Part shown: piece after piece, positions 49,458 through 63,061 of the stretch
Position numbering within the stretch: position 1 is the first letter of the stretch
How the letters are laid out: each line of letters opens with the position of its first letter
Source: Acidobacteriota bacterium
GTDB taxonomy: Bacteria; Acidobacteriota; Vicinamibacteria; Vicinamibacterales; CAVVIG01
Direction of reading: 5' to 3'
DNA length: 64,000 nucleotides
Assembly: GCA_043743165.1 (NCBI GenBank)
Contig: JAYTXA010000059.1
Location: 70,816-134,815, forward strand
Translations under genes and position numbers: made by a program
The notes under the pieces: model-generated
Seen by the model: the letters and a program-made list of their open reading frames with translations, nothing else
Told to the model about the DNA's origin: nothing
The model's database searches: none

Positions 49458-52223
49458 CTACTGCTTTGCCTCAGCGCTCCAGTTCATGAGCAGCGTGATC
49501 GGTGCGGCAGCGCTGTCCAGCACGGTGTTGATCAGGAAGCGTCCATCGGGGGCGACGTCGTATTGCCGGCCAAGCTGAATGTCCGCCCCACCGCCCAGGA
49601 TTCGGGTCCGAAACAGCATCACCGGCGCTCCAGGCTCGATGGTGTCCCCGGACACCGGGATGGGCACGGCCATCATCGCGCCGGACGGGTTGAGGTAGTA
49701 CAGCTCCTTGCCGTCGGCGCGCCAGGCGGGGTGGATACCGCCGCCAGTCGAAACCTGCCACTGGCCCGTTGCCTGCGACTGCTGGACCGCGCCCTGACCA
49801 TTCGTGAGGGCCTGCCCTGTCGAGTCCGGCTCCCTGAACGGCCGGACATAGACCTCCTGGCGTCCGGATTCATTGGACATGTAGGCGACCCATCGTCCAT
49901 TCGGCGAGAACACACCCCACGCCTCCCGAAACGTCGTCTTGACAATCACCCACGGAGCCCGGCTGTGGTCCGTTGGCATGACCCAGAGGTCGGTATTCGA
50001 CTGCGGATCGGTGCTGTGAAACAACAGGAAACGCCCGTCTGACGACCAGCTGTTCGGAGTCTTCAGCTGGTCCGACGTGATCAGCCGTTCCTCCTGCGTG
50101 GCGCCACTGGTCGCCTTCAGGAAGATGTCGCCCGTTCCAGGGCTCCCGCGCTGCGAGCGGAAGGCGACGCGGGCTCCGTCGGGAGACCAGAGCGGGAATC
50201 CGTCCAGAGCAGGATCGAACGTGAGGCGGAGCGTCCGCGACCCGTCCATCATCCAGATGTCGGCGTTGCCCTGGACCGTGCGCGTCATCACCAGGCGCTG
50301 CCCGTCTGCCGACAGGCGTGGGTTCGACTGGCTCTCGTCCTCGGTGCCAAGGGACCCAAGCGCCGTTCCGGCCCGATCTCTCCACACGAGTTGTCGTTTG
50401 CTGCCTGCCCCCGTCCGATAGGCGATCAGTCCGGTAGGCGTCACCGAGACGCCGCTGCGATAGGAGGTATCGATACCTACTCCGTCGGCGAGGGTGAGCG
50501 GCTCGCCGGTCAATGCCGCGCGATCGGGATCGAGGCGCTGTGCCACTAACGCGCCGGCCCGCACCCACAGCAGCCAGCCGTTTCCCTGGCGCGGCCCACG
50601 TGCGCCAGGTCTGTCGGCCAGGTGAACCCCGGCACCATCGGCTGATGTGAGCCGGGTCGGTGTTCCGGCTTCAAGCGAACCGAGGTAGATCCCGGACACC
50701 GCCGCTGCCCCGGTGACGTAGAACAGGAATCGGCGCCCGTCGGGCAGGAAGTATGGCGCAGTGTGGCCGGCTTGTTGAGAACTGAGATCCGTGACGCCGG
50801 TTACCTCTCCGCCTGAGGATGGCACGCGCATCAACGGAGTTGTGCGGCTCGCCCCAAAGACGATCACGCCGTCGGCGTTCCAGGAGCCGCCGCGACCGAC
50901 AATGACGGGCGCCAACGTCTGGGCGGCCGCGCCGCTGAGATCGAGTCGTTTGAGCGCATTCGACGCGAAGAAGCCAATAGACCGACCGTCAGGCGACCAG
51001 AACGGAAACAACCCGCCTTCTGTGCCAGCCAGAGGCTCGGCAGTGGTGGTCCCGAGCGAACGAAGCCACAAGCGAGGAACGCCCTCTGCCGACGCCGCGA
51101 AGACGATCTGGCGGCCGTCTGGTGACAGGGCGAAGGACGTGGGGTCGTCGGTTGTCGGCGTGACGATGTCCACTCGGGTCTCGGCCTGCGGGAGGGGCGT
51201 CGCCTCTTGAATGTGACGAAGCGCGGGGACCGCGAACACGGCCGCGGCCATCAACGAAGCGACCGCCGCGACCCACGCGGTCCGTTCGCGTCTCAGTGTG
51301 TGTGGGGTAGTCGCTGAACCGAGCGCCAGCACGCCGCCCTGCTGCACCCACATCAATTCGTCGTGCAGGTCCTTCGCGCTCTGCCAGCGGTCATCCGCGT
51401 CTTTCGCCAAGCACTTGCTGACGAGGCGCTCGAAGGCCGGCGGCGTCATCGGCTGACGCGTCGAGAGTGCGAGCGGTGTGTGGTTCAGAATGGCGCCGAT
51501 GATGCTGGCCGCGGACTCGCCGTTGAACGGTCGCTGCCCCGTCGCCATCTCGTACAGCAGCGTGCCCAGCGCCCAGATGTCGGTGCGCGTGTCGGCGTCG
51601 CGCCCTTCCACCTGCTCGGGCGCCATGTAGTGAATGGTGCCGAGGATGGTCCCCTTCGCCGTCGCCGGACCCGCCGTCGTGGCGGCAGTTTCGGTGGACA
51701 GCGACACCGGCGACGCGGCGCTGTGCAGCTTCGCGAGTCCGAAGTCGAGCAGCTTCGGGCCGCTCTTCGTGAGCATCACGTTTGCGGGCTTCAGATCGCG
51801 GTGCACGATGCCGGCGCGATGCGCCTTGTCGAGCGCGTCGGCGATGGACGTGCCGATCTTCAGAACCTCGTCGATCGGCAGCGGGCCTTTCGCGCGCGCG
51901 AGTCGCTCCGCGAGTGTCTCGCCCTCGAGCAGCTCCATCACGAGGTAGTCAATACCTGTCCCTGAGCCTGTCGAAGGGTCCTGGTGCCCCACGTCGTAGA
52001 CGACGCAGATGTGCGGGTGGGAGAGCGCGGCAATCGCGCGGGCTTCCCGCTCGAAGCGCGCGCGAGCGGACGCATCGGCCGCGGAATCGGACGGCAGCAC
52101 CTTGATCGCCACGGTGCGCGCGAGGCGCGTGTCGCGGGCCTTGTACACCTCGCCCATCCCGCCGGCACCGAGCGCCGAGAGAACTTCGTAGGGACCGAGT
52201 CGGGTGCCGGGTGTGAGCGCCAA
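49458..52223 (-). CDS. Ser/Thr receptor kinase with single TM and TolB-like beta-propeller (STK-1)
   Basis: 921-aa ORF with a TTG start. Hanks kinase motifs are [22 protein letters not shown], DFG and APE. The TM helix is [18 protein letters not shown]40 repeats (SPDGR..., WSPDG...) run to the C-terminus. Confidence 0.9.
   Translation of the reverse strand: [921 protein letters not shown]
51345..52223 (-). repeat. kinase-domain direct repeat, copy A (pairs with 57482-58337)
   Basis: By-eye nucleotide alignment shows roughly nine in ten positions identical over the whole kinase-coding part. There is one 21-nt in-frame indel near 51955-51978. Boundaries are approximate. Confidence 0.75.

Positions 52224-63061: not shown

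What the first reader, a model, noticed from the sequence alone, without database searches (positions are those of the whole stretch)
49458..63061. Array of three receptor Ser/Thr kinases plus one deleted copy showing domain-level mosaicism (kinase A + propeller X, kinase A + propeller Y, kinase B + propeller X')
All copies lie on the minus strand within 14 kb. STK-1 and STK-2 share an almost identical kinase domain ([13 protein letters not shown][VI]LS.[27 protein letters not shown]...). After about residue 290 they diverge completely in TM segment and propeller, and the C-termini are ...[14 protein letters not shown] versus ...IVQHWFEELNRLVPTK. STK-3 has a much more divergent kinase ([26 protein letters not shown]...). 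Its propeller, however, is collinear and clearly similar to STK-1 (compare [29 protein letters not shown] with [29 protein letters not shown], and [13 protein letters not shown] with YDVSRDGRFLVNT). This pattern suggests recombinational shuffling or gene conversion between an intracellular signalling module and extracytoplasmic sensor propellers. That would amount to a locally diversifying receptor repertoire.
Basis: partly seen in the sequence, partly recalled or inferred. Interest (0 to 1): 0.7.

Follow-up and report, generated by a model that had tools for sequence, protein, structure and literature searches.

The report
Receptor kinase paralogs with swapped kinase modules
Three neighbouring membrane receptor kinase genes of a soil acidobacterium (plus one dead copy) are real mosaics: old gene conversion copied the intracellular kinase part between two genes whose outer sensor parts are unrelated. 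The same pattern recurs in many related genomes, so it is an ordinary but well-documented case of paralog evolution.

Summary
Three full-length Hanks-type Ser/Thr receptor kinases lie on the minus strand: STK1 49458-52223, STK2 55599-58337 and STK3 60302-63061. Each has a kinase, one TM helix and a TolB-like PD40 beta-propeller. An out-of-frame, internally deleted remnant lies at 59668-59950.

STK1 and STK2 share an 895-nt tract (-19 to +876, 87% nt, about 89-90% aa). Beyond it there is no nucleotide similarity, and the propellers are about 30% identical. A max-chi-square test places the breakpoint at STK1 residues 292-296 (p<0.001).

Bootstrapped trees of the two halves conflict:
- Kinase tree: STK1 and STK2 are sisters (93%) in a clade supported at 100%. 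STK3 sits in the other major clade.
- Propeller tree: STK1 and STK3 fall in clade X and STK2 in clade Y (100% split).

The exchange is old (dS about 0.33, omega 0.18) and probably nested. The closest Y-type propellers elsewhere mostly carry STK3-like kinases, so STK2 was probably the recipient.

The same mosaic recurs in other Acidobacteriota. It appears in 16 of 82 neighbour pairs against 112 of 7299 unlinked pairs, with similar tract limits.

I found no DGR-like repeats or silent-cassette array; the neighbouring ORFs scanned are RM/TA and unrelated genes.

Verdict: homology-driven partial gene conversion in a known, very large family. The kinase module is homogenised. The sensors are not being locally diversified.

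The parts
49458..52223 (-). STK1: receptor Ser/Thr kinase, 921 aa, kinase type A plus propeller type X1. Kinase is residues 1-297 (51333-52223), the TM helix is residues 317-340 (51204-51275), and the all-beta propeller region is residues 349-913 (49485-51179).
   Evidence: ORF. Pfam Pkinase 3.3e-48 and PD40 1.2e-36. AlphaFold model with mean pLDDT 87.9, helix 317-340 and an all-beta region 349-913. The kinase superposes on M. tuberculosis PknB (target-normalised TM-score up to ~0.88-0.89, ~35% id). The propeller matches TolB by sequence (E 4.6e-11). The exact protein is in NCBI as P0001.
55599..58337 (-). STK2: receptor Ser/Thr kinase, 912 aa, kinase type A plus propeller type Y. It is the probable recipient of the kinase tract.
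   Evidence: ORF. Pfam Pkinase 1.1e-48 and PD40 5.8e-17. The propeller falls in clade Y (100% bootstrap split from X). The closest Y-type propeller elsewhere is only 54% identical (63% over a 374-aa fragment). Of the 107 best Y-type representatives that retain a kinase C-lobe, 93 are STK3-like and 12 are A-like.
60302..63061 (-). STK3: receptor Ser/Thr kinase, 919 aa, kinase type B plus propeller type X3.
   Evidence: ORF. Pfam Pkinase 3.3e-47 and PD40 4.4e-21. The kinase lies in clade B, separated from the A superclade at 100% bootstrap. The propeller lies in clade X with STK1.
51348..52242 (-). STK1 side of the shared (converted) tract: -19 to +876 relative to the TTG. It covers the short 5' leader and kinase codons 1-292.
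   Evidence: blastn 87.3% over 895 nt with nothing beyond it. Repeat families D1 and D2. dS 0.33 and omega 0.18 overall. dS is ~0.2-0.3 for codons 1-250 and ~1.08 for codons 251-297.
57483..58353 (-). STK2 side of the shared tract (-16 to +855). It lacks the 21-nt insertion that STK1 carries.
   Evidence: blastn, codon alignment, repeat families D1 and D2.
59668..59950 (-). Internally deleted pseudogene. It has a TATAATC box, a TTG at 59936-59934 and ~9 N-terminal codons. These are joined out of frame to the last ~75 codons of a divergent X-like propeller, with the stop at 59668.
   Evidence: tblastn hit 59683-59907. Three-frame translation and alignment of the 5' ends. 48-nt repeat family D4. 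The C-terminal peptide is 30-36% identical to the last blade of X-type propellers.
52234..52240 (-). TATAATC box 11 nt upstream of the STK1 TTG. The equivalent boxes are at 58345-58351 (STK2), 59944-59950 (remnant) and 63069-63075 (STK3).
   Evidence: These are the only four TATAATC in the 64 kb, against 0.36 expected and none of 100 shuffles reaching 4. Alignment of the 5' regions.

Best explanation
What the genes are. They encode receptor-type Hanks Ser/Thr kinases. Each has a cytoplasmic PknB-like kinase, a disordered juxtamembrane linker, one TM helix and a large extracytoplasmic TolB-like (PD40) beta-propeller region that presumably binds a ligand. By analogy with PknB and PknD, ligand-dependent dimerisation would drive activation-loop autophosphorylation and substrate phosphorylation. 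This signalling step is inferred, not shown.

How the mosaic arose. It comes from homology-dependent partial gene conversion (ectopic recombination) between paralogs in the same chromosome neighbourhood. The kinase-coding 5' third is the only part of these genes with enough nucleotide similarity to pair. Tracts therefore start near the conserved start region and end within or at the end of the kinase domain. The linker, TM helix and propeller stay untouched.

History at this locus.
1. Kinase type A was already joined to propeller X1 before STK1 split from its full-length ortholog P0002, which is ~80% identical along its whole length.
2. Later an A-type kinase, from STK1 or a close paralog, overwrote the kinase of a Y-propeller gene and produced STK2. 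The relatives of that gene mostly carry STK3-like (B) kinases.
3. The tract has since diverged under purifying selection (dS ~0.33). It looks nested, with a younger part covering codons 1-250 and an older part covering codons 251-297.

Consequence. Different sensors are coupled to nearly the same signalling module. This is concerted evolution of the output domain, not local diversification of sensors. The fourth copy is a dead internal-deletion remnant.
For: Shown:
- Architecture and fold. Catalytic residues K41, E60, HRD 141-143, N148 and DFG 160-162 are invariant in 102 homologs including all three genes.
- An abrupt breakpoint at residues 292-296, chi2 169 against a permutation maximum of 20.5.
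- Nucleotide similarity is limited to -19..+876.
- Kinase tree: (STK1,STK2) 93%, A clade 100%, A/B split 100%. Propeller tree: X/Y split 100%, STK1+P0002 100%.
- P0002 is uniformly ~80% identical to STK1 along its length, while the STK1 and STK2 kinases are ~89-93% identical. The last exchange therefore postdates that split.
- dS and omega values, and the dS step at codon ~250 (Fisher p ~1e-4).
- In an unbiased propeller-only search, 93 of 107 Y-type relatives carry B-like kinases.

Generality:
- 30 of 79 genome loci hold 2 or more such genes within +/-10 kb.
- Pairs with kinase identity >=0.8 and propeller identity <0.5 make up 16/82 neighbour pairs against 112/7299 unlinked pairs. The odds ratio is 15.6 and p = 4e-13. 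Eight of 25 multi-gene loci are affected.
- In those genomes the nucleotide tracts mostly start at 0..+25 (a few further upstream) and, in all but two pairs, end at +754..+891.
- Arrays L001 and L024 show combinatorial kinase x propeller mosaics.
Against: - Direction is inferred from family associations only. No ortholog of STK2 and no orthologous locus from a sister genome was retrieved.
- Only 64 kb of the genome was available, so the true donor could be an unseen paralog.
- The trees are neighbour-joining trees with a simple distance correction, not ML. Relationships inside the A clade are poorly resolved (20-50% bootstrap).
- The nested-tract inference rests on 47 codons.
- Some 'between-locus' pairs may come from the same genome.
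- Ligand, substrates and kinase activity are untested.
Confidence: 0.8

Rival explanations
1. No recombination occurred. STK1 and STK2 are tandem duplicates whose kinase is held by strong purifying selection, while the propeller diverged very fast, for example under positive selection for new ligands.
For: The kinase shows purifying selection (omega 0.18). In many pairs in this family kinase domains are more conserved than propellers.
Against: - The STK1 propeller is far closer to STK3 (52-55%) and to dozens of proteins from other genomes (60-79%) than to STK2 (30-34%).
- The X/Y propeller split has 100% bootstrap support.
- Synonymous divergence in the kinase tract is only ~0.33, and nucleotide similarity stops abruptly at +876. 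Rate differences cannot produce this.
- STK2's propeller has its own relatives elsewhere.
Confidence: 0.03
2. A single domain-swap event by unequal crossing-over or illegitimate recombination at the kinase/linker boundary created a chimeric gene in one step. On this view there was no repeated homology-driven gene conversion.
For: - The break lies at the domain boundary.
- Unequal crossing-over between tandem paralogs predicts arrays of the form K1-P1, K2-P1, K2-P2. Both kinds of sharing (same kinase, or same propeller) are seen in L001 and L024.
- An internal-deletion remnant sits in the array.
Against: - In the window, unrelated genes (a 200-aa ORF with a weak, sub-threshold ABM match, MarR and DUF3592) lie between STK2 and STK1 and are not duplicated.
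- No gene in the window shares STK2's propeller.
- Tract ends vary between +754 and +891 in other genomes.
- dS and nearest-neighbour relations change inside the kinase at codon ~250. This fits several conversion tracts better than one swap.
Confidence: 0.12
3. The genes were acquired independently by horizontal transfer. STK2 arrived with an A-type kinase already attached to a Y propeller, so the similarity to STK1 reflects a shared donor lineage rather than exchange within this genome.
For: - The array is interleaved with mobile or defence modules: type I RM with Fic, MntA/HepT and Phd/ParE.
- Other A-clade kinases on Y-type propellers exist (P0127, L026_p9730).
Against: - The STK1 and STK2 kinases are each other's closest relatives (93% bootstrap; 93% aa over residues 1-250, against <=90% to any other protein).
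- The three Y-type genes with A kinases do not group together in the kinase tree.
- Kinase sharing is strongly enriched among physical neighbours in other genomes.
- No compositional anomaly is evident (GC 0.64-0.67 across 48-64 kb).
Confidence: 0.04
4. The locus is a programmed diversification system (a diversity-generating retroelement, an invertible shufflon, or cassette-based variation) that actively reshuffles receptor modules.
For: There are several paralogs plus a truncated copy in one orientation within 14 kb. A conserved 48-nt 5' element is shared by all four.
Against: - Apart from the kinase tract, a few short (25-114 nt) conserved coding motifs and two weak inverted repeats, no template/variable repeat pair, long inverted repeats or silent-cassette array is present in 49-64 kb.
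- The neighbouring ORFs I scanned are RM, TA, MarR, DUF3592 and cupin-like proteins, not reverse transcriptases or invertases.
- The shared tract has dS ~0.33, so it has not been exchanged recently.
Confidence: 0.01

Closest known systems
Mycobacterium tuberculosis PknB and PknD (receptor Hanks-type Ser/Thr kinases; PknD has a beta-propeller sensor)
   Same: Both have an N-terminal cytoplasmic Hanks kinase, a juxtamembrane linker, a single TM helix and an extracytoplasmic sensor. The STK1 kinase model superposes on PknB structures (target-normalised TM-score up to ~0.88-0.89, ~35% identity). PknD is a receptor Ser/Thr kinase (PMC1847690); that it pairs its kinase with a beta-propeller sensor is from my own knowledge.
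   Different: The sensor here is a ~565-residue TolB-like PD40 propeller region. It is not PASTA (PknB) or the six-bladed NHL propeller (PknD; from my own knowledge). No mosaic paralog arrays are described for the mycobacterial kinases as far as I know.
The acidobacterial kinase + PD40/TolB-like propeller family (annotated 'protein kinase / Tol biopolymer transport system component')
   Same: The window genes are ordinary members. More than 8000 proteins score E<=1e-30, with the same Pfam set and length (~880-930 aa), many from Vicinamibacterales. PD40 is listed among the domains most often tethered to bacterial STKs (PMC2877116). Expansion of STK paralogs in Acidobacteria was reported for Solibacter usitatus (PMC3174227).
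   Different: Those papers do not describe module-level mosaicism or gene conversion. In PMC3174227 'gene conversion' occurs 0 times. In PMC2877116 I searched only 'domain shuffling' (0 occurrences) and 'domain combination' (1 occurrence, in the reference list).
Partial gene conversion and concerted evolution in tandem receptor-kinase clusters of plants (RLK, CRK/DUF26 and Xa21-type clusters)
   Same: Tandem arrays of receptor kinases evolve by tandem duplication together with gene conversion and domain rearrangement (e.g. PMC6368629 and PMC8215822, found).
   Different: Those are eukaryotic genes with LRR, DUF26 or lectin ectodomains. Here the system is bacterial, the exchanged part is specifically the kinase module, and the ectodomain lineages are ancient. 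I did not read those papers in detail, so the comparison is by analogy only.

Membership tests
Hanks-type (eukaryotic-like) Ser/Thr protein kinase, Pfam PF00069 | Significant match to the Pkinase profile above the curated cut-off | tested here: met
   STK1 scores 164.8 bits, STK2 166.4 and STK3 161.5, against a cut-off of 31.7.
Hanks-type (eukaryotic-like) Ser/Thr protein kinase, Pfam PF00069 | Catalytic signature residues: Gly-rich loop, VAIK Lys, alphaC Glu, HRDLKPxN, DFG and APE | tested here: met
   K41, E60, H141-R142-D143, N148 and D160-F161-G162 are invariant. P202 of the APE motif is also invariant (A201 was not listed among the invariant or >=90% columns; E203 >=90%). This holds across 102 aligned homologs including STK1-3. 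The motifs are directly readable in the translations.
Hanks-type (eukaryotic-like) Ser/Thr protein kinase, Pfam PF00069 | Bilobal kinase fold | tested here: met
   The AlphaFold model has pLDDT mostly above 90 in residues 1-297. Foldseek matches PknB, PknA, PknE, PknF and PknI with target-normalised TM-scores of 0.8-0.9.
Hanks-type (eukaryotic-like) Ser/Thr protein kinase, Pfam PF00069 | Phosphotransfer activity on Ser/Thr | not testable with these tools
   Needs biochemistry.
Receptor-type bacterial STK with an extracytoplasmic beta-propeller sensor (PknD-like architecture) | A single TM helix between the kinase and the sensor, and an all-beta propeller C-terminal region | tested here: met
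   The model shows helix 317-340 after a disordered linker 298-314, then beta strands only over 349-913. Pfam finds PD40 repeats and the sequence is similar to TolB. The propeller type differs from PknD's NHL propeller.
Partial gene conversion / ectopic recombination between paralogs | An abrupt, statistically supported change in which sequences are most similar along the gene | tested here: met
   Max-chi2 is 169 at residues 292-296, against a permutation maximum of 20.5. The nucleotide tract runs from -19 to +876 only.
Partial gene conversion / ectopic recombination between paralogs | Well-supported phylogenetic incongruence between the two parts | tested here: met
   NJ trees with 200 bootstraps. 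Kinase tree: (STK1,STK2) 93% and A/B split 100%. Propeller tree: X/Y split 100% with STK1 and STK3 in X and STK2 in Y.
Partial gene conversion / ectopic recombination between paralogs | Donor and recipient in the same genome, closer to each other in the tract than either is to its orthologs | tested here: met
   The STK1 and STK2 kinases are 93% identical over residues 1-250. STK1 is 83% identical to its full-length ortholog P0002 over the same residues. In other genomes, pairs with a shared kinase and a different propeller are enriched among physical neighbours (OR 15.6, p = 4e-13).
Partial gene conversion / ectopic recombination between paralogs | Polarity shown by comparison with an unconverted ortholog of the recipient | tested here: inconclusive
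   No STK2 ortholog was found; the best full-length hit is 49% identical. Indirect support exists: 93 of 107 Y-type relatives carry B-like kinases.
Programmed diversification systems (DGR, shufflon, cassette variation) | Template/variable repeat pair, inverted recombination sites or silent cassettes, plus a reverse transcriptase or invertase | tested here: not met
   No such repeats are present in 49-64 kb. The neighbouring ORFs I scanned carry RM, TA, MarR, DUF3592 and cupin domains. ORFs in 1-37 kb were not scanned.

The most novel reading that the evidence does not exclude
Recurrent homogenisation of the kinase module among physically linked receptor kinases may be a selected, phylum-wide design principle in Acidobacteriota. 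On this reading, arrays of anciently different TolB-like sensors are kept wired to one shared kinase 'output'. The kinases might also form heterodimers through near-identical N-lobes, so that many signals converge on one phospho-network. That would make these arrays a bacterial counterpart of plant receptor-kinase repertoires. The conserved TATAATC-TTG start element might serve as the 5' homology anchor for conversion.
Probability: 0.2. Interest if true: 0.55.

Novelty: new member of a known kind. Interest (0 to 1): 0.33.

Why it matters
Acidobacteriota are among the most abundant soil bacteria and carry very large, uncharacterised families of receptor Ser/Thr kinases. The sensor and kinase halves of these genes have separate histories, and neighbours repeatedly share kinase modules. 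This has three consequences.
- Orthology or function should not be inferred from whole-gene similarity in this family.
- Kinase-domain trees will partly track genomic neighbourhood rather than sensor specificity.
- It gives a testable idea of how many sensors could feed a common signalling output.

The finding does not reveal a new molecular machine.

Tried and rejected
1. The genome-contig scan with STK1 was meant to find the source genome or a sister strain. The best locus was only 52% identical, so no orthologous locus was obtained. The 79 loci were still useful as independent arrays.
2. Two metagenome DNA-pattern scans were run. The STK1/P0002-specific pattern gave 0 hits. The A-clade signature [10 protein letters not shown] gave 5 contigs, all only 52-65% identical in the kinase.
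3. The look-up of encoding contigs failed for the NCBI proteins P0001, P0007 and P0121, which are not on record.
4. The listing of cluster members gave no names or accessions, so the organism is inferred only from homolog labels (Vicinamibacterales/Acidobacteriota).
5. The kinase-only homolog search returned mostly short fragments and did not list the known full-length A-clade members. It was used only to note P0241-P0244.
6. The canonical sigma-70 scan found no -35/-10 pair at the STK starts. The TATAATC boxes therefore remain a sequence observation.
7. Rejected readings: rate heterogeneity, assembly chimera, independent HGT and a programmed diversification system (see rivals). An assembly chimera is unlikely because the tract is 87% identical rather than ~100%. 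The same pattern also occurs on a contig titled 'chromosome: 1' (L063, OZ245365.1).
8. Foldseek with the full-length model returned only kinase hits. The propeller was therefore characterised by sequence search against PDB instead.
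Full report
OBSERVATION

All three start with TTG. tblastn of the three proteins against the whole window finds no other full copy. 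It does find a short match at 59683-59907.

Reading that region shows the conserved 5' end of these genes: a TATAAT box, a TTG at 59936-59934 and about nine codons (LPLTPGTR). This is fused out of frame to the last ~75 codons of a propeller ending ...LMNWRPDAATK* at 59668. Its C-terminal peptide is only 30-36% identical to the last blade of X-type propellers.

WHAT THE PROTEINS ARE

- Pfam finds Pkinase (E about 1e-47 to 1e-48) and several PD40 repeats in each protein.
- An AlphaFold model of STK1, built on 102 homologs, has mean pLDDT 87.9. It shows a kinase (1-297), a disordered linker (298-314), one long helix (317-340) and then an all-beta region (349-913).
- The kinase superposes on M. 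tuberculosis PknB, PknA, PknE, PknF and PknI (target-normalised TM-scores 0.8-0.9, ~35% identity).
- The C-terminal region matches TolB by sequence (E 4.6e-11).
- Catalytic residues (K41, E60, HRD 141-143, N148, DFG 160-162) are invariant across the alignment, which includes all three window genes.

These are therefore receptor-type Hanks kinases with TolB-like propeller ectodomains.

The family is very large. Each full-length query returned at least 8000 proteins at E<=1e-30 with the same domain set, several labelled Vicinamibacterales or Acidobacteria. The Y-propeller alone matches 93,579 cluster representatives at E<=1e-3. PD40 is listed among the domains most often attached to bacterial Ser/Thr kinases (PMC2877116). 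Expansion of Ser/Thr kinase paralogs in Acidobacteria has been reported (PMC3174227).

THE MOSAIC IS REAL

Sliding-window protein identity:
- STK1/STK2 run at 0.80-0.97 up to about column 290 and then at 0.20-0.42.
- STK1/STK3 run at 0.26-0.66 in the kinase and 0.34-0.65 in the propeller.

At nucleotide level, STK1 and STK2 align only from -19 to +876 relative to the start (87.3% over 895 nt). No similarity is detectable further upstream or downstream.

A max-chi-square test on 403 informative sites places the break between STK1 residues 292 and 296. The statistic is chi2 = 169, against a largest value of 20.5 in 1000 permutations. Site counts by region:
- Kinase: 131 sites group STK1 with STK2, 6 group STK1 with STK3, and 3 group STK2 with STK3.
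- Propeller: the corresponding counts are 48, 152 and 33.

TREES

I built neighbour-joining trees with 200 bootstraps for 43 sequences, namely the three genes plus the nearest relatives of each half.

Kinase tree:
- An A superclade and a B clade separate at 100%.
- A tight A clade (100%) contains STK1, STK2, P0002, P0003, P0007-9, P0011, P0012, P0022, P0127 and L026_p9730.
- STK1 and STK2 are sisters at 93%.
- STK3 lies in clade B.

Propeller tree:
- Clades X and Y separate at 100%.
- STK2 lies in Y.
- STK1 pairs with P0002 (100%) inside an X subgroup whose other members mostly carry B kinases.
- STK3 lies in another X subgroup.

TIMING AND DIRECTION

The shared tract has dS = 0.33, dN = 0.059 and omega = 0.18. 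The exchange is old and the tract has since evolved under purifying selection.

Within the tract, dS is about 0.2-0.3 for codons 1-250 and about 1.08 for codons 251-297 (Fisher p ~1e-4). In residues 251-297, STK2 is closest to P0009 (87%) rather than to STK1 (74%). In residues 1-250, STK1 and STK2 are 93% identical and no other protein exceeds 90%. This suggests nested tracts from more than one event, although the short segment limits confidence.

P0002, from a JGI metagenome, is about 80% identical to STK1 uniformly along its whole length. The A+X1 combination therefore predates that split. The STK1-STK2 kinase similarity (89-93%) is higher than STK1-P0002, so the last exchange is younger than the split.

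The propeller-only search of 1.84 billion cluster representatives is not biased by the kinase. Among its 149 best Y-type hits, 107 retain a kinase C-lobe. Of these, 93 are STK3-like (B), 12 are A-like and 2 are ambiguous. The closest hit (P0361, 54%) has a B-like kinase tail. STK2 is therefore the probable recipient of an A kinase. This is an inference, because no STK2 ortholog was found (best full-length hit 49%).

GENERALITY

The genome scan returned 79 loci from other Acidobacteriota and relatives.
- 30 loci hold two or more kinase-propeller genes within +/-10 kb.
- Among genes taken from those loci, pairs with kinase identity >=0.8 but propeller identity <0.5 make up 16 of 82 within-locus pairs and 112 of 7299 between-locus pairs. 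The odds ratio is 15.6 and p = 4e-13. Eight of 25 multi-gene loci are affected.
- At nucleotide level the shared tracts in those genomes mostly start at about 0..+25 (a few extend upstream) and, in all but two pairs, end at +754..+891, with 77-96% identity. These are essentially the same limits as in the window.
- Arrays L001 and L024 show full combinatorial mosaics. One kinase type sits on three propeller types, and one propeller type carries two kinase types.

The phenomenon is thus a recurrent property of these arrays, not a peculiarity of this locus.

MECHANISM

The best-supported explanation is homology-dependent partial gene conversion between linked paralogs. The kinase-coding third, together with the conserved start region, is the only part with enough nucleotide similarity to pair. 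Tracts therefore end within or at the end of the kinase domain, and the linker, TM helix and propeller are left unchanged. Variable tract ends and the internal dS step fit repeated conversion better than one domain swap.

Unequal crossing-over may contribute in tightly packed arrays such as L001 and L024. It does not fit the window, where unrelated genes between STK2 and STK1 are not duplicated.

No template/variable repeats, long inverted repeats or silent-cassette array exists in 49-64 kb. The neighbouring ORFs I scanned encode restriction-modification, toxin-antitoxin, MarR, DUF3592 and cupin-like proteins. A programmed diversification system is therefore not supported.

The functional consequence is inferred: different sensors are coupled to nearly the same kinase module.

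COMPARISON AND NOVELTY

The proteins are ordinary members of a known and very large family. The process, partial gene conversion in tandem paralogs, is well known. The closest analogy is plant receptor-kinase clusters (papers found).

My literature searches found no report of kinase-module gene conversion in bacterial receptor kinases. The library is limited to open-access papers, so absence there is weak evidence. I rate the finding as a new member of a known kind, of modest interest.

LIMITS

- Only 64 kb of the genome was available.
- No syntenic sister locus was retrieved.
- The trees are NJ, not ML.
- Direction and the nested-tract reading are inferences.
- Kinase activity, ligands and substrates are untested.

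Noticed in passing
window 52234-52240, 58345-58351, 59944-59950, 63069-63075 (minus strand): The heptamer TATAATC occurs exactly four times in the 64 kb, against 0.36 expected. Each copy lies 8-11 nt upstream of the TTG start of one of the four kinase copies. None has a Shine-Dalgarno sequence or a -35 match. TAnAAT-like boxes at the same distance occur upstream of 22 of 136 homologous genes in other genomes. This suggests leaderless or near-leaderless mRNAs with a UUG start, which would be unusual.
   Followed up: partly
window 40785-49446 (minus strand): A type I restriction-modification system carries an embedded Fic/DOC gene. It comprises HsdR (40785-43823), an HsdS-like ORF (within 44573-46636), Fic (45970-47160) and HsdM (47221-49446). 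HsdM starts only 11 nt after the STK1 stop codon.
   Followed up: partly
window 58403-59042 (minus) and 63131-63772 (plus): Two toxin-antitoxin pairs are interleaved with the kinase genes. One is MntA-like nucleotidyltransferase (58734-59042) with HepT (58403-58744). The other is Phd/YefM (63131-63490) with ParE (63497-63772). Together with the RM system this makes the array look like a variable, island-like region.
   Followed up: partly
window 63809-64000 (minus strand, runs off the window): This is the C-terminal end of a probable PP2C-type Ser/Thr phosphatase (...GGKDNVTVVV...). The Pfam SpoIIE match is only E = 0.0099, below threshold. If real, it would be a natural partner of the kinases.
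   Followed up: partly
window 53010-54883 and 59115-59606 (minus strand): Unrelated genes sit between the kinase genes. They are a 200-aa ORF with a weak, sub-threshold ABM (antibiotic biosynthesis monooxygenase) match (53010-53612), a MarR regulator (53705-54253), a DUF3592 membrane protein (54260-54883) and a small ORF with weak, sub-threshold cupin matches and a hydrophobic N-terminus (59115-59606).
   Followed up: no
L082 about 3746-4441 (metagenome contig Ga0209515_10021738): A second example of an internally deleted kinase-propeller remnant. Kinase residues 3-87 are followed directly by the propeller C-terminus. It lies just upstream of a full-length gene in an unrelated metagenome contig, so such remnants may be a recurrent by-product of recombination in these arrays.
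   Followed up: no
window 51954-51974 (STK1 codons 84-90): STK1 carries a 21-nt in-frame insertion (PSTGSGT) inside the otherwise shared kinase tract, relative to STK2. It falls in a low-confidence loop of the model (residues 81-90, pLDDT ~71).
   Followed up: no
NCBI annotation of STK1 and STK2 (P0001 899 aa, P0121 890 aa): The deposited proteins start 22 residues downstream, at the internal ATG (M23, inside the Gly-rich loop GAGGMGEVY), rather than at the conserved TTG. They therefore lack the N-terminal [13 protein letters not shown]... segment that is conserved across the family. This is a likely start-codon mis-annotation.
   Followed up: partly
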